Shown here: positions 1,791-10,151 of the stretch, one piece after another
Numbering within the stretch: the stretch's first letter is position 1
Layout of the letters: the number at the start of each line of letters is the position of its first letter
Program-made: the position numbers and the translations under genes
Assembly (NCBI GenBank): GCA_937925095.1
Contig: CALEXX010000013.1
Coordinates: 1-13,592, forward strand
From: an uncultured Leptotrichia sp.
Lineage (GTDB): Bacteria > Fusobacteriota > Fusobacteriia > Fusobacteriales > Leptotrichiaceae
Direction of reading: 5' to 3'
Length of the DNA stretch: 13,592 bases
The notes under the pieces: model-generated
What the model was told of the DNA's origin: nothing
Databases searched by the model: none
Seen by the model: the letters and a program-made list of their open reading frames with translations, nothing else

Positions 1791-2315
1791 TTAAAGAATA
1801 ATTCTTACAAAATCATCTTTTCTAGGTTTAGGAGAAGGAAGCTCACAGTCACGATAGCCTAAAATACAGAATCCTATTCCGGCATATTTATCTTCCACTC
1901 CCCATTCACGTGCAAGATTTCTACCTTCTTCAGATTCGAAAATTTGTCTTGCCCTGTGAATCCAGCATGAATCAACTCCTAGAGCATAAGCTGCATTCAT
2001 AAGATTTCCCATTACAAGGCTTCCGTCTTCAACAAATGTATGTGAAGTAGTGTCTCCAAAAACAACAACTACAGTAGGTGCATTATAAAATGGCTTTGCA
2101 TCCGGATTTCCCATTACTTTTGCATTCATTACTTCCAGAGTTTTTATAAGTTCGGCATTCTGTATGGCAACAATAGATGTTCCCTGAATACCTCTACCAT
2201 TTGCGGCATATGTTCCTGCTTCAAGTATTTGATTTAAAAGACCTGTGTCAATCTTATCATTTTTATATTTTTTGATACTTCTTCTTTCAATCAGATTTTT
2301 CAGTGTTTCATTCAT
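1791..2315 (-). CDS. Nitroreductase-family NAD(P)H flavin oxidoreductase (174 aa)
   Basis: N-terminal LIERRSIKKY matches the RRS(I/V)R(K/R)(F/Y) nitroreductase signature, and the length fits the family. A strong SD AGGAGGAAATC precedes the ATG at 2315. Confidence 0.8.
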   Translation of the reverse strand: MNETLKNLIERRSIKKYKNDKIDTGLLNQILEAGTYAANGRGIQGTSIVAIQNAELIKTLEVMNAKVMGNPDAKPFYNAPTVVVVFGDTTSHTFVEDGSLVMGNLMNAAYALGVDSCWIHRARQIFESEEGRNLAREWGVEDKYAGIGFCILGYRDCELPSPKPRKDDFVRIIL

Positions 2316-2351
2316 AAGATTTCCTCCTGCTGATAAAAATGTTTTTATAAT

Positions 2352-2360
2352 ATTATAACA
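2352..2360 (-). promoter_or_regulatory. Extended -10 element (TGTTATAAT on the minus strand) likely driving the nitroreductase/YoaK/lipoprotein operon
   Basis: The reverse complement of 2352-2360 reads TGtTATAAT, about 30 nt upstream of the nitroreductase SD. No good -35 was seen. Confidence 0.35.
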
Positions 2361-2382
2361 GAAAAATTTGAATTTTAAAAGA

Positions 2383-2411
2383 TTGACAATATGAAATTTA
2401 GAGTATATAAT
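2383..2411 (+). promoter_or_regulatory. Perfect-consensus sigma70-type promoter (TTGACA-17-TATAAT) with no annotated gene downstream
   Basis: TTGACA at 2383-2388, a 17-nt spacer (2389-2405) and TATAAT at 2406-2411, all on the + strand, inside a gap whose two flanking genes are both on the minus strand. Confidence 0.5.
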
Positions 2412-2418
2412 GTATATG

Positions 2419-2650
2419 TAAAAAATAAGGAAATAAAATAAATTTTATATTTCTGGTCTATTTGTTACCGACAATACAATTTTTGGGCTTTACTCTATTA
2501 TAATGGGGTTATCTCTTTATATGCTGAATCAGGAAAATCACGGCGGTCAAGACTTAGCACGGATTCTGTACATCATTATAAACATGACTACCACCTGTAC
2601 ACTTTTACAGGCTACCAAAAATTAAGTCGAAACGGTAGACCGGATTTTTT
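2419..2650 (+). ncRNA. Candidate small RNA (about 230 nt) running from the orphan promoter to a terminator-like hairpin with a U-tract; identity unknown
   Basis: Predicted TSS about 7 nt after the -10. The 2500-2645 segment is GC-richer than its surroundings. Hairpin CCTGTA-CACTTT-TACAGG (2595-2612) is followed by stem GGCTACC / GGTAG(A)CC and GGATTTTTT (2611-2650). The only ORF is a 34-codon frame at 2521 with poor SD spacing. Confidence 0.25.
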
Positions 2651-2908
2651 ATTAAAATTTTTATTGAAAAATAACAAAAAAATTAATGTTAATATTTTCT
2701 TTTAAAAGTTGAAAAAGGGTAAAGATAATAGAAATCCAGTTTTAATAATGAAAAAAGATAAGGAAAAAGATTTAAAATAACAGTGAGTTGAAAAAGGTAA
2801 AAAAAATTTTTTAGGAAGGTATTGCTTTTTATCAAAATCAGGGTATATTTTATTAGTACTTATTTTTAAAAAAGATTTTATCTTTTTTGTCTTTTCATAG
2901 CGTTACTT

Positions 2909-2944
2909 GAAGAGTGGATCCCCAACCACTCTTCTTCTTTTATT
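2909..2944 (+). terminator. Rho-independent terminator oriented for + strand transcripts
   Basis: Perfect 9-bp inverted repeat GAAGAGTGG (2909-2917) / CCACTCTTC (2926-2934) with an 8-nt loop, followed by TTCTTCTTTTATT on the + strand. The minus-strand flank is not U-rich. Confidence 0.5.
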
Positions 2945-2958
2945 CAAACGTTTTAATT

Positions 2959-3621
2959 TTATAGATTTTCACAATTTAATTTATATTTGCCACTTTTGAT
3001 TTTTGTAAGAATTCCCTTGTCACACAGGGAAGAAATTTCTCTCGATAGGGAAGGACGTGTAACTTCAAATTTTTTAGCCAGTTCAGAAATATTAGGCTTA
3101 AATGAAATATATCCATTTTTCTGGTTTTCCTTAATATAGCTGAGGACTTTTTCATTTATTGTTTTATTCATAAAGTTAAACCATATTCTTTTGGAAAGAA
3201 GCTGTCCCTTGTTTGAAATTTCATCCAGAAAATTAACAAGAAGTCTTTCATCCTTCTGCATGGCACTTAGAAAATTATCTTTATTTAAAAATAAAAATTT
3301 TGAATTTTCTGTAGAAATAAGATCTACAGGGAAAGTTCTATTGCTTCCAAAAATAAAAGCGGGAGCAATAAGCTGATACGGAGTAATGTAGTCAATAGTT
3401 ATAGTATCCCCATTAAATTTCTGCATTTCTCCTTTGGAAGTTCCTGACAGGATAATGATAATCTGTTCAAGGGAATCATCTCTAAAGAAAACGGTTTCGC
3501 CTTTTTTGTAGTTCTTAATCTGAAAATTCATGGTTTTCAGAATTTCTTCAATTTCTTCTATATTAAAACCTTTAAACAAAGGTATTCTAGACATTATTTC
3601 ATAAAGTTCCTGAGGTTTCAT
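2959..3621 (-). CDS. Crp/Fnr-family transcriptional regulator (cNMP-binding domain plus C-terminal HTH, 220 aa)
   Basis: N-terminal cNMP-binding-like fold (…PLFKGF…FFRDDSLEQIIIILSG…) and C-terminal HTH ELAKKFEVTRPSLSREISSLCDKGIL, at the length of Crp/Fnr proteins. It is divergent from the asparaginase gene. Confidence 0.85.
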   Translation of the reverse strand: MKPQELYEIMSRIPLFKGFNIEEIEEILKTMNFQIKNYKKGETVFFRDDSLEQIIIILSGTSKGEMQKFNGDTITIDYITPYQLIAPAFIFGSNRTFPVDLISTENSKFLFLNKDNFLSAMQKDERLLVNFLDEISNKGQLLSKRIWFNFMNKTINEKVLSYIKENQKNGYISFKPNISELAKKFEVTRPSLSREISSLCDKGILTKIKSGKYKLNCENL

Positions 3622-7499: not shown

Positions 7500-10151
7500 A
7501 TGAAAAAAGAACTGGATAAAGTTTATTCGCCAACTGAAATCGAAGACAAGTGGTATAAAATATGGGAAGAAAATGGATACTTTAGTGCACAGCATAATGA
7601 CGAGAAGCCAGGTTACTCAATAGTAATCCCGCCTCCTAACGTAACAGGGATACTTCACATGGGTCATATGCTGGATAATACTATTCAGGATGCAATAATA
7701 AGATATAAAAGAATGAGTGGATTTGATACTTTGTGGGTTCCCGGAATGGATCATGCAGGAATTGCAACTCAGAATAAAGTTGAGAGAATGCTGAAGGAAC
7801 AGGGAACTTCAAAGGAAGAAATCGGAAGAGATGAATTCCTGAAAAAAACATGGGAATGGAAGGAAAAACACGGCGGACTTATAACTAAACAGTTGAGAAA
7901 ACTTGGAGTTTCTCCTGACTGGTCAAGAGAAAGATTTACAATGGATGAAGGGCTTTCGAGAGCTGTAAAGGAAGTATTTATAAAACTTTACAATGATGGT
8001 CTTATTTATAGAGGAGAATACATTGTAAACTGGTGTCCACATGATAAGACTGCCCTTGCAGATGACGAAGTAAACCACTTTGAAAAAAATGGAAAAATAT
8101 GGGAAATAAAATATCCTATAAAAGACAGTGATGGATATGTTGTAATTGCTACAACAAGACCTGAAACAATGCTGGGAGATACAGGAGTAGCTGTAAATCC
8201 TAACGACGAAAGATATAAGGATTTAATAGGAAAAAAGGTAATACTGCCATTAATGGACAGGGAAATACCTGTAGTTGCTGATGAGTATGTAGATATGGAA
8301 TTTGGAACAGGAGTAGTTAAAATGACGCCTTCCCACGATCCTAACGACTTTGAGGTGGCAAAAAGAACTGGACTTCCTTTCCTGAATATATTTACAGAAG
8401 ATGCAAAAGTAAATGAAAATGGTGGGAAGTATTGTGGGCTTGAAAGATTTGAAGCAAGAAAGGCTATACTGAAAGACCTTGAGGAACAGGGATACCTTGT
8501 AGGAGTGAAGGAACATAAAAATGCTGTTGGACACTGTTACAGATGTGACTCAGTAATTGAGCCAAGAGTTTCTACACAATGGTTTGTAAAAATGAAGCCT
8601 CTTGCTGAAAGAGCTCTAGAAGTAGTAAAAAATGGTAAAATACAGATAACTCCAAAAAGATGGGAAAAAGTGTACTATAACTGGCTTGAAAATATAAGGG
8701 ACTGGACAATTTCCAGACAGATCTGGTGGGGACACAGAATACCTGCCTATTATGCGGAAGACGGTTCAATATTTGTAGCTAGGGATTTAGAAGAAGCAAA
8801 GGCTCAGGCAAGGGAAAAATTTGGGAAAGATGTTCCTTTAAGAGAAGAAACAGATGTACTTGATACATGGTTTTCATCAGCTTTATGGCCTTTCTCCACA
8901 ATGGGATGGCCTGATAAGACAAAGGATCTTGAAAAATTCTTCCCGACAAATGTACTTGTAACAGGAGCAGATATACTGTTCTTCTGGGTAGCAAGAATGG
9001 TGATGATGAGTTTATATATAAATGATGAGATACCATTTGACTATGTATATTTACATGGTCTTATAAGAGATGAACAGGGAAGAAAAATGAGTAAATCCCT
9101 AGGAAACTCACCTGATCCTCTAGATCTTATAGATAAGTACGGAGCTGATGCAATAAGATTCAGTTTCCTTTACAATACATCACAGGGACAGGATATACAT
9201 TTCTCAGAAAAACTTCTTGAAATGGGATCAGCTTTTGCAAATAAAGTATGGAATGCATCGAGATTTGTATTGTCTAACCTTGAAGATTTTGACGACAAAG
9301 TGTCTGTAATGGATCTGGAATTCAAGCTGGAAGACAGATGGATACTGTCGAAACTTCAGTCAGCATCAAAATCTATAAATGAAAGCATGGAAAAATACGA
9401 GCTAGACAGTGCGGCAAAAATAGCCTATGAATTTTTCAGGGGAGATTTCTGTGACTGGTATGTGGAAATTGCTAAAACGAGAGTTTATGGTGGAGAAGGT
9501 ACAGATAAAGCAACTGCCCAGTGGGTATTGAAACATGTGCTGGATAATGGTCTGAAAATGCTTCATCCATTTATGCCATTTATTACAGAAGAAATATGGC
9601 AGAAACTTGAAATAGAAGAGCCTACTATAATGCTTTCAGATTTCCCTAAGGAAGACAAGGCATTAGTAAGTGTTGAATCAGAAAAGGAATTTGACTATTT
9701 GAAGGAAGTAGTAACAGCTGTAAGAAATATAAGAGGAGAAAACAATGTTTCACCTTCAAAGAAAATTGAAGTAATATTCAAGACTGTAAATGAAGCTGAA
9801 AAGAAAATACTGGAGCACAATCCTAAGATTTTAGATAAGCTTGCAAATGTTGAAAAATATGACTTCACACCTAATATTGAAATTCCTGAACTTGTAGGAT
9901 TCAGACTAGTTGAAACTACTGAAATATATGTTCCGCTTGCTGATCTTATAGACAAGGAAAAGGAAATTGCAAAACTTGAAAAGGATATAGAAAAAACTCA
10001 GAAGGAACTGGATAAGGTTTTAGGAAAGCTTTCAAATGAAGCGTTTTTAGCGAAAGCACCTCAAGCTGTTGTTGACAAGGAAAATGCAATTAAGGAAGAA
10101 CTTGAAACTAAAATTGCAAAATTCAGGGAATCGATAAACCTGTATAAATAA
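7500..10151 (+). CDS. valS: Valine--tRNA ligase (valyl-tRNA synthetase)
   Basis: Class I HIGH motif (PPPNVTGILHMGHML), KMSKS motif (GRKMSKSLGN), the typical N-terminus (…YSPTEIEDKWYKIWEENGYF), a C-terminal coiled-coil region and a length of 883 aa. Confidence 0.95.
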   Translation: MKKELDKVYSPTEIEDKWYKIWEENGYFSAQHNDEKPGYSIVIPPPNVTGILHMGHMLDNTIQDAIIRYKRMSGFDTLWVPGMDHAGIATQNKVERMLKEQGTSKEEIGRDEFLKKTWEWKEKHGGLITKQLRKLGVSPDWSRERFTMDEGLSRAVKEVFIKLYNDGLIYRGEYIVNWCPHDKTALADDEVNHFEKNGKIWEIKYPIKDSDGYVVIATTRPETMLGDTGVAVNPNDERYKDLIGKKVILPLMDREIPVVADEYVDMEFGTGVVKMTPSHDPNDFEVAKRTGLPFLNIFTEDAKVNENGGKYCGLERFEARKAILKDLEEQGYLVGVKEHKNAVGHCYRCDSVIEPRVSTQWFVKMKPLAERALEVVKNGKIQITPKRWEKVYYNWLENIRDWTISRQIWWGHRIPAYYAEDGSIFVARDLEEAKAQAREKFGKDVPLREETDVLDTWFSSALWPFSTMGWPDKTKDLEKFFPTNVLVTGADILFFWVARMVMMSLYINDEIPFDYVYLHGLIRDEQGRKMSKSLGNSPDPLDLIDKYGADAIRFSFLYNTSQGQDIHFSEKLLEMGSAFANKVWNASRFVLSNLEDFDDKVSVMDLEFKLEDRWILSKLQSASKSINESMEKYELDSAAKIAYEFFRGDFCDWYVEIAKTRVYGGEGTDKATAQWVLKHVLDNGLKMLHPFMPFITEEIWQKLEIEEPTIMLSDFPKEDKALVSVESEKEFDYLKEVVTAVRNIRGENNVSPSKKIEVIFKTVNEAEKKILEHNPKILDKLANVEKYDFTPNIEIPELVGFRLVETTEIYVPLADLIDKEKEIAKLEKDIEKTQKELDKVLGKLSNEAFLAKAPQAVVDKENAIKEELETKIAKFRESINLYK

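What the first reader, a model, noticed from the sequence alone, without database searches (positions are those of the whole stretch)
2316..2958. A 643-bp gene-free gap with a perfect-consensus + strand promoter and no + strand gene: candidate sRNA locus
Both flanking genes are on the minus strand. The gap nevertheless contains a textbook TTGACA-17-TATAAT promoter on the + strand (2383-2411), the strongest promoter-like sequence in the whole window. It is followed by a relatively GC-enriched structured segment (2500-2645) ending in a hairpin and GGATTTTTT, and further on by a perfect 9-bp-stem terminator oriented for the + strand (2909-2944). The only + strand ORF is 34 codons with poor SD spacing. 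I could not match the segment to SRP RNA, 6S RNA, tmRNA, RNase P or a riboswitch class by eye.
Basis: seen in the sequence. Interest (0 to 1): 0.55.

Follow-up and report, generated by a model that had tools for sequence, protein, structure and literature searches.

The report
6S RNA gene plus a second sRNA
The "empty" gap holds the ordinary 6S RNA gene (the widespread RNA that sequesters RNA polymerase) of an oral Leptotrichia, driven by the perfect promoter, and also a second, separately transcribed ~90-nt small RNA of unknown function that is almost invariant across a subset of Leptotrichia lineages.

Summary
In detail: a 643-bp gap between two minus-strand genes, the window's only 12/12 sigma-70 promoter (2383-2411, +), a structured segment ending in GGATTTTTT, and a 9-bp terminator hairpin (2909-2934, +). 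Rfam RF00013 matches 2447-2650 (+) end to end at 48.4 bits (gathering 46.4). The same match passes gathering in 14 of 16 Leptotrichia relatives, and BLAST finds the homologue in the other two. The consensus fold is the canonical 6S rod (61 pairs, 99.3% paired, 10 with compensatory changes; 0/500 shuffles reach this). The perfect TTGACA-17-TATAAT precedes 6S in every species. The distal terminator belongs to a different unit: a ~89-nt RNA (2856-2944, +) with its own TTGCTT-16-TATATT promoter. Its first ~51 nt are nearly invariant in eight lineages. It occurs without 6S (L102, L113, L111), and 6S occurs without it (L087-L092). It matches no Rfam family and no target was found. Verdict: 6S is a known, ordinary housekeeping RNA and of low interest. 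The second RNA is a modestly interesting, apparently undescribed Leptotrichia sRNA candidate. No expression data were available.

The parts
2383..2411 (+). Sigma-70 consensus promoter of the 6S gene (-35 TTGACA 2383-2388, 17-nt spacer, -10 TATAAT 2406-2411); predicted TSS about 2416-2418
   Evidence: Only 12/12 match in the window; 0.01 expected by chance. A perfect TTGACA-17-TATAAT sits upstream of 6S in every relative examined.
2418..2446 (+). Predicted 5' leader of the primary 6S transcript: A/U-rich, not conserved, length varies between species
   Evidence: The distance from the -10 to the 6S 5' end is 20-78 nt across species, with no sequence conservation. The leader does not join the 6S fold. 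Trimming is inferred from B. subtilis and E. coli (PMC10578484).
2447..2650 (+). 6S RNA (ssrS). Closing stem 2452-2472 / 2626-2644; internal stem 2478-2486 / 2615-2623; 5' central bubble 2487-2503 (presumed pRNA template region together with 2478-2486); apical arm 2504-2593; hairpin on the 3' side of the bubble 2594-2611; invariant U-run 2645-2650
   Evidence: Rfam RF00013 at 48.4 bits (GA 46.4), model positions 1-187 of 187. Homologues in all 16 relatives. Consensus structure and covariation; coordinates.
2651..2821 (.). A-rich spacer, poorly conserved apart from an AGTTGAAAAAGG-like motif present twice (2707-2719, 2786-2798) and an A-tract/T-tract palindrome (about 2799-2813) upstream of the second promoter
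   Evidence: Alignments A2 and A3. The repeat finder reports only low-complexity repeats. Function unknown.
2822..2849 (+). Promoter-like element of the second RNA: -35 TTGCTT 2822-2827, 16-nt spacer, -10 TATATT 2844-2849 preceded by a conserved GG
   Evidence: TTGnnn-15/16-TATAT(T/A) is kept in nine of the ten lineages scripted, and by eye in the tenth (L095, A3 alignment). The -10 lies 6-7 nt before the first conserved transcribed base. It is retained where no 6S lies upstream.
2856..2944 (+). Second small RNA ('sRNA2', ~89 nt): 5' tail 2856-2866, A/U hairpin 2867-2889, unpaired linker GUCUUUUCAUAGCGUUACU 2890-2908, terminator hairpin 2909-2934, U-rich tail 2935-2944
   Evidence: MFE -19.6 kcal/mol, z = -4.84. 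Nearly invariant in 8 lineages. One copy per locus. No Rfam match. Occurs without 6S in L102, L113 and L111.

Best explanation
The gap carries two independent non-coding RNA genes on the + strand. (1) ssrS, the 6S RNA. It is transcribed from the consensus sigma-70 promoter at 2383-2411 as a precursor with a short, non-conserved 5' leader. It probably ends at the invariant U-run (2645-2650) that directly follows the closing stem. Like other 6S RNAs, it folds into a rod whose large central bubble mimics an open promoter. It binds the housekeeping sigma (RpoD)-RNA polymerase holoenzyme and holds it inactive. It is released when the polymerase copies the 5' bubble and internal-stem strand (2478-2495, invariant in 11 of 12 aligned copies) into a short product RNA, roughly 5'-GAGUAAAGCCCAAAAAUU, which unzips the internal stem. 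Shown here: homology, fold, covariation and a conserved promoter. Inferred from the family and from Fusobacterium nucleatum: polymerase binding, product-RNA synthesis and leader trimming. (2) A separate ~89-nt RNA (2856-2944) with its own promoter and intrinsic terminator. Its layout (5' A/U hairpin, 19-nt unpaired invariant linker, terminator) and extreme sequence conservation fit best with a trans-acting regulatory sRNA that base-pairs or binds protein through the linker. The target is unknown.
For: 6S: full-length Rfam RF00013 match above gathering. The same match passes gathering in 14 of 16 Leptotrichia relatives, and BLAST finds homologues at 79-98% identity in all 16. The MFE and consensus folds give closing stem, 17-nt 5' bubble, apical arm and a hairpin opposite the bubble, which is the canonical architecture described in PMC8414754. 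Of 61 pairs, 99.3% of cells are paired and 10 pairs show double changes; 0 of 500 shuffles reach this, and partners slid by 1-3 columns give 0-2. The perfect promoter is conserved in every species. The internal ORF is not conserved. F. nucleatum 6S pulls down RNAP including RpoD, and pRNAs have been detected there (PMC11039985). sRNA2: near-invariant block with diverging flanks. Conserved promoter geometry. T-rich tail on the + strand only. A G-C to A-U switch at the bottom terminator pair, and an A-to-G change in L083 that keeps a G.U pair only on the + strand. Present without 6S, and 6S present without it. Stable fold with z = -4.84.
Against: No expression data of any kind were available, so transcript ends, processing, abundance and polymerase binding are all inferred. 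The Rfam score is only 2 bits above gathering, and two relatives fall below it. The 3'-bubble hairpin (6 pairs) and most of the internal stem never vary, so they carry no covariation evidence. The 'GG at pRNA position 4/5 or 5/6' hallmark described for lactic acid bacteria and B. subtilis is not evident in the predicted product RNA. For sRNA2, variation is too low for real covariation: strand support rests on only two substitutions plus the T-tail. The promoter is a sequence-level inference with a short 15-16 nt spacer. No target stood out among 150 translation-initiation regions (best -18.1 against shuffled -16.3 +/- 2.0 kcal/mol).
Confidence: 0.93

Rival explanations
1. The whole region is one ~525-nt transcript that starts at the consensus promoter and ends at the 2909-2944 terminator. 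The second conserved block would then be the 3' part of a long 6S precursor, or be processed out of it, and not a gene of its own.
For: Both elements are on the same strand and in the same order in the window and the 10 Crp-linked relatives that carry the block, plus several metagenome loci. The 6S end has no separate short terminator hairpin, only the long-range closing stem plus U6, so some read-through is plausible.
Against: The block keeps its own -35/-10-like element at fixed distance. It occurs with a protein-coding gene or other DNA upstream in place of 6S in L102, L113 and L111. 6S occurs without it in L087-L092. GGATTTTTT is invariant at the 6S end. The spacer between the two is poorly conserved.
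Confidence: 0.12
2. The second conserved block is not an sRNA gene. It would be the 3' UTR and bidirectional terminator of the convergent minus-strand gene (the Crp/Fnr regulator or msrB), or a conserved DNA-level protein-binding site.
For: In most loci it abuts the stop codon of a convergent gene. In several species the hairpin is followed on the minus strand by 4-5 U. The minus-strand fold is also stable, z = -3.5.
Against: It follows different convergent genes (crp, msrB), and in L111 it follows none: a same-strand AraC/GyrI-like gene lies downstream instead. In the window the minus-strand tail is AAGUAAC, not U-rich. The L083 A-to-G change would create a C.A mismatch on the minus strand. 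Conservation begins about 7 nt after a -10-like hexamer oriented for the + strand.
Confidence: 0.2
3. The structured segment encodes a small protein (the 40-codon ORF at 2503-2625), or is a cis-regulatory leader or riboswitch.
For: An ATG-initiated 40-aa ORF exists.
Against: The start codon is lost in the closest relative L081, and there are premature stops in L085, L087, L090 and L091. No + strand gene lies downstream for a leader to regulate. No riboswitch family matches. Covariation supports an RNA structure.
Confidence: 0.01

Closest known systems
6S RNA / SsrS (Rfam RF00013): E. coli SsrS, B. subtilis 6S-1 (BsrA), Fusobacterium nucleatum 6S
   Same: Length of about 200 nt. Rod shape with closing stem, large 5' central bubble, apical arm and a hairpin opposite the bubble, as in B. 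subtilis 6S-1 and lactic acid bacteria (PMC8414754). Full-length covariance-model match. Its own strong sigma-70 promoter. A 5' leader on the primary transcript, as in B. subtilis (11 nt, RNase J1) and E. coli (RNase E/G) (PMC10578484).
   Different: The score is only just above gathering. The leader varies widely in length between species (20-78 nt from the -10 to the 6S start). The closing stem is followed directly by an invariant U6, a likely terminator with no separate hairpin. The predicted product RNA has a GCCC core, not the GG hallmark of Firmicutes. The 6S-plus-promoter cassette lies beside a Crp/Fnr-family gene across Leptotrichia, in either orientation.
Fusobacterial trans-acting sRNAs such as FoxI and FoxJ of F. 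nucleatum
   Same: For the second RNA only: about 90 nt, intergenic, own promoter, intrinsic terminator, a conserved unpaired stretch that could serve as a seed, and a phylum that lacks Hfq, ProQ and CsrA (PMC11039985, PMC9546586).
   Different: No sequence similarity was established. The promoter looks sigma-70-like, with no sigma-E-type -10 'GTC' at the right spacing. No target or inducing condition is known. The core was not found in the supplementary files held for PMC11005410.

Membership tests
6S RNA (RF00013) | Covariance-model score at or above the Rfam gathering threshold, over the full model | tested here: met
   48.4 bits against 46.4, model 1-187 of 187, E = 2.7e-7. 14 of 16 orthologous loci also pass, at 47.8-53.3 bits.
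6S RNA (RF00013) | Length about 160-200 nt; rod-shaped fold with closing stem, large 5' central bulge and apical stem-loop (PMC8414754) | tested here: met
   193-204 nt. The MFE and RNAalifold structures both give this architecture.
6S RNA (RF00013) | The structure is maintained in evolution (compensatory changes) | tested here: met
   61 pairs, 99.3% of cells paired, 10 pairs with double changes, 0 of 500 shuffles as high, slid controls 0-2. Caveat: only 11 distinct sequences from one genus.
6S RNA (RF00013) | Hairpin on the 3' strand opposite the 5' central bulge (B. subtilis 6S-1 / LAB type) | tested here: inconclusive
   Predicted at 2594-2611 in all sequences, but all 6 pairs are invariant, so there is no covariation either way.
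6S RNA (RF00013) | Non-coding, with its own promoter | tested here: met
   The internal ORF is not conserved. The perfect sigma-70 consensus is conserved in all species.
6S RNA (RF00013) | Binds housekeeping-sigma RNA polymerase holoenzyme | not testable with these tools
   Shown for F. nucleatum 6S in the same phylum (PMC11039985); inferred here.
6S RNA (RF00013) | Templates product-RNA synthesis from the central bulge; pRNA hallmarks (GG at 4/5 or 5/6, AA at 9/10 in Firmicutes) | tested here: inconclusive
   The presumed template strand 2478-2495 is invariant in 11 of 12 aligned copies. The predicted pRNA, GAGUAAAGCCCAAAAAUU, has the A-run but a GCCC core and no GG. The start site is unknown and no small-RNA data were available.
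Any Rfam family (for the second RNA, 2856-2944) | Covariance-model match | tested here: not met
   Nothing at gathering. At E <= 10 there are only chance, terminator-driven hits, the best being the L20 leader at 20.5 bits against a gathering score of 58.7.
Trans-acting base-pairing sRNA (for the second RNA) | Own promoter, intrinsic terminator and a conserved unpaired seed | tested here: met
   Sequence-level only: conserved TTGnnn-15/16-TATAT(T/A), 9-bp hairpin plus T-tail, invariant 19-nt unpaired linker.
Trans-acting base-pairing sRNA (for the second RNA) | An identifiable mRNA target with conserved complementarity | tested here: inconclusive
   Only about 150 initiation regions were available, and the best duplex was no better than shuffled seeds. 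Whole genomes could not be searched.

The most novel reading that the evidence does not exclude
The 2856-2944 unit is a previously undescribed Leptotrichia small RNA. It is a self-contained cassette of about 125 bp (promoter, RNA, terminator). Its first ~51 transcribed nucleotides are under stronger purifying selection than 6S RNA itself: 89-96% identity over the 104-nt block between lineages whose 6S copies are 80-85% identical and whose neighbouring regulator protein is only about 70% identical. It acts in trans through its invariant 19-nt linker (complement GUAACGCUAUGAAAAGAC, which looks like a start-codon region) in a phylum that lacks Hfq, ProQ and CsrA.
Probability: 0.5. Interest if true: 0.4.

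Novelty: already known. Interest (0 to 1): 0.2.

Why it matters
For the main feature it matters little. 6S RNA is near-universal, and this copy is found by the standard Rfam model, so the result mainly turns an "unannotated gap" into a routine annotation. Two points are mildly useful. First, the Leptotrichia 6S promoter is a perfectly conserved full consensus in a phylum whose sigma-70 promoters are reported to have weak -35 boxes (PMC9546586). That fits very high constitutive expression, and the promoter could serve as an expression tool. Second, the neighbouring ~89-nt RNA is an unusually conserved, unannotated sRNA candidate in an understudied oral genus. If it is expressed, it would be a good entry point for studying Hfq-independent RNA regulation in Leptotrichiaceae.

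Tried and rejected
(1) Using the nitroreductase flank to collect orthologous loci. 78 of the 80 hits were Firmicutes-type homologues. The two Leptotrichia loci were either cut off (L001) or in a different neighbourhood without 6S (L002). I switched to the Crp/Fnr flank, which worked. (2) A permissive Rfam scan of 2640-2990 for the second block gave only chance, terminator-driven hits. (3) A covariance model of the second block (R1), searched over 281 kb of Leptotrichia DNA, found no diverged or extra copies. The one marginal hit (L101 11257-11345) is an ordinary gene terminator. (4) BLAST for complementarity to the second RNA returned only low-complexity A/T matches. (5) A duplex-energy scan of the linker against 150 translation-initiation regions was no better than shuffled seeds. 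(6) A sigma-E-type promoter reading of the second block (its GTACTT and GTC motifs) was rejected by eye, because the 27-nt spacing is too long. (7) A reading as a dif or other recombination site was also rejected by eye: there is no XerD-arm-like TTATGT(T/A)AA. (8) A phage-borne element: no match in viral contigs. (9) Searches for the core sequence in the F. nucleatum sRNA papers' supplements: no files are held for one paper and there were no matches in the other. (10) Spacer repeats are low-complexity only. (11) No paper in the library mentions both Leptotrichia and 6S RNA. The Wassarman review could not be fetched.

Full report
OBSERVATION. The gap is as described. ORFs 1791-2315 (-) (nitroreductase family) and 2959-3621 (-) (cNMP-binding/HTH, Crp/Fnr-like regulator) bracket 643 bp with no substantial ORF. 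TTGACA-17-TATAAT at 2383-2411 (+) is the only 12/12 promoter match among 68 promoter-like sites in the window. A perfect match is expected 0.01 times per window (1 of 200 dinucleotide shuffles). The best terminator-like site in the window is the 9-bp stem at 2909-2934 (+) followed by TTCTTTTATT. The one inaccuracy concerns the ORFs: the + strand ORFs are 40, 23 and 30 aa, not a single 34-codon ORF.

WHAT THE STRUCTURED SEGMENT IS. A gathering-threshold Rfam scan of the whole window returns one hit: RF00013 (6S/SsrS RNA) at 2447-2650 (+), 48.4 bits (gathering 46.4), E = 2.7e-7, covering model positions 1-187 of 187. Because the margin is small, I tested the assignment independently. The segment folds into a long rod (MFE -48.7 kcal/mol, z = -3.7).

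ORGANISM AND RELATIVES. The window comes from an uncultured human-oral Leptotrichia. Synteny on the nitroreductase side is not kept. The Crp/Fnr-like regulator, however, has a graded series of Leptotrichia homologues at 58-96% identity, and I fetched 16 loci around 10 of them. Rfam finds a full-length 6S above gathering next to the regulator gene in 14 of the 16 (47.8-53.3 bits). BLAST finds the homologue in the remaining two at 84% identity. In L090-L092 the 6S gene, with its promoter, lies in the opposite orientation relative to the regulator gene.

STRUCTURE AND COVARIATION. Twelve copies align at 87% mean column identity. RNAalifold gives the following elements, with coordinates:
- a closing stem (window 2452-2472 with 2626-2644)
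- an internal stem (2478-2486 with 2615-2623)
- a 17-nt 5' central bubble (2487-2503)
- a long apical arm (2504-2593)
- a hairpin on the 3' side of the bubble (2594-2611)

This is the canonical 6S architecture described for lactic acid bacteria and B. subtilis 6S-1 (PMC8414754). Of 61 pairs, 99.3% of cells form standard pairs and 10 pairs carry double (compensatory) changes. None of 500 column shuffles reaches the observed values, and sliding the partners by 1-3 columns gives 31-40% pairing and 0-2 covarying pairs. Caveats: there are only 11 distinct sequences from one genus, and the 3'-bubble hairpin and most of the internal stem never vary. The 40-codon ORF inside the RNA is not conserved: the start is lost in L081 and premature stops occur in L085, L087, L090 and L091.

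PROMOTER, ENDS, MECHANISM. A perfect TTGACA-17-TATAAT precedes 6S in every species. This is notable because F. nucleatum sigma-70 promoters are reported to have an extended -10 and only a weak -35 (PMC9546586). The stretch between the -10 and the 6S 5' end varies from 20 to 78 nt, is not conserved and stays outside the fold. I therefore infer a precursor with a 5' leader that is trimmed or tolerated, as in B. subtilis (11 nt, RNase J1) and E. coli (RNase E/G) (PMC10578484). All copies end in an invariant GGATTTTTT directly after the closing stem. In L090 no other + strand terminator follows. I therefore infer that the closing stem plus U6 is the terminator. Function is inferred from family membership, and from F. 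nucleatum, where 6S pulls down RNAP including RpoD and product RNAs were detected (PMC11039985). The model is sequestration of the RpoD holoenzyme, with release by product-RNA synthesis templated on the strand 2478-2495, which is invariant in 11 of 12 aligned copies.

THE DISTAL TERMINATOR BELONGS TO A SECOND RNA. Aligning the whole intergenic region revealed a second block (window about 2842-2935). It is more conserved than 6S: 89-96% against 80-85% identity for the same species pairs. Conservation starts 6-7 nt after a TATAT(T/A) hexamer, which is itself preceded at 15-16 nt by TTGnnn (window: TTGCTT 2822-2827, TATATT 2844-2849). The RNA (2856-2944) folds into three parts (MFE -19.6 kcal/mol, z = -4.84):
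- a 5' A/U hairpin (2867-2889)
- a 19-nt unpaired linker, GUCUUUUCAUAGCGUUACU (2890-2908)
- the terminator hairpin with its U-tail

AUTONOMY OF THE SECOND RNA. A metagenome scan with its 20-nt core gave 17 further genuine copies and one chance hit. The unit is autonomous:
- In L102 and L113 a protein-coding gene, not 6S, lies upstream.
- In L111 it lies upstream of an AraC/GyrI-like gene with no 6S upstream and no convergent regulator gene.
- In L085/86 it follows msrB.
- 6S in L087-L092 has no such block.

STRAND OF THE SECOND RNA. Evidence for the + strand is limited but consistent. The T-rich tail is on the + strand. The bottom terminator pair switches G-C to A-U. One A-to-G change in L083 keeps a G.U pair on the + strand but would give a C.A mismatch on the minus strand.

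WHAT IS NOT KNOWN ABOUT THE SECOND RNA. It matches no Rfam family. It is absent from viral contigs. It is single-copy per locus. No convincing target was found in the small amount of Leptotrichia DNA available. I read it as an undescribed trans-acting sRNA candidate. The main rival reading is a conserved 3' UTR or bidirectional terminator of the convergent gene.

COMPARISON AND NOVELTY. The principal feature is a bona fide member of the 6S RNA family. Every sequence- and structure-level criterion I could test was met. Polymerase binding and product-RNA synthesis could not be tested. It is detectable with the standard public model, so it is already known in kind and of low interest. No paper in the searchable library mentions Leptotrichia together with 6S RNA, so the genus-specific details appear undocumented but are unsurprising: the conserved perfect promoter, the variable leader, the U6 end, and the linkage to a Crp/Fnr gene in either orientation. 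The second RNA is the only potentially new item.

VERDICT. This is an sRNA locus, but it consists of the known 6S RNA plus a separate small RNA, not one unknown RNA. Confidence that 2447-2650 is 6S RNA: about 0.93-0.95. Confidence that 2856-2944 is an independently transcribed sRNA: about 0.6-0.65. Overall interest is low (0.2).

Noticed in passing
L090 4738-4939 (+); L091 and L092 4776-4978 (+): In three more distant Leptotrichia lineages the 6S gene with its consensus promoter lies 60-98 nt downstream of the Crp/Fnr gene on the SAME strand. In the window and the other 13 loci it is convergent. The cassette has therefore been inverted while staying linked to the regulator gene.
   Followed up: partly
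window 2707-2719, 2786-2798 and about 2799-2813: An AGTTGAAAAAGG-like motif occurs twice in the spacer and recurs in relatives. It is followed by an A-tract/T-tract palindrome upstream of the second RNA's -35 (in L111 a near-perfect TTGAA-N6/7-TTCAA). This may be a regulator-binding site or an UP-like element. It is of interest because a Crp/Fnr-family gene lies next door.
   Followed up: partly
L109 about 9720-9900 (minus strand): The sequence just downstream of 6S (AAAATTTTTATTGAAAAATAAC...) and the second RNA are retained, but 6S itself is replaced, starting within a few bases of its 3' end, by an unrelated gene and terminator. This is either a real rearrangement with its breakpoint at the 6S 3' end or a chimeric metagenome assembly.
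   Followed up: no
L094 about 1900-1925 (minus strand): An 11-nt tandem duplication (AATGAGGTATA) covers the -10 region of the second RNA's promoter in one metagenome contig. The contig is otherwise identical to L093.
   Followed up: no
window 2352-2379 (-): TTTAAA-16-TATAAT with an extended -10 TG lies back-to-back with the 6S promoter. It is probably the nitroreductase promoter, and its type (extended -10, weak -35) matches what is reported for F. nucleatum.
   Followed up: no
L002 3396-3546 (+): A glmS ribozyme (RF00234, 87 bits) lies upstream of a 609-aa ORF (presumably glmS) in a related Leptotrichia MAG. It is unrelated to the finding.
   Followed up: no
L093 6202-6723 (-), L094 3361-3882 (-): A ToxN-family (type III toxin-antitoxin) toxin gene lies about 1 kb from the 6S locus in one lineage. 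I did not look for ToxI-like repeats.
   Followed up: no
L100 and L112 (contigs BNJS01002674.1, BNJT01000589.1): Both RNA genes show homopolymer-length differences (for example an extra A or T in runs, CCCC becoming CCCTC) in these 2.4-Mb contigs. These are most likely long-read assembly errors and not real variants, so I excluded them from the alignments.
   Followed up: partly
L091 and L092 5001-5492 (+): A 163-aa ORF with no Pfam hit and a plausible ribosome-binding site (AAAGGAAAATATG) starts 23 nt after the 6S U-run, so it could be co-transcribed by read-through.
   Followed up: no
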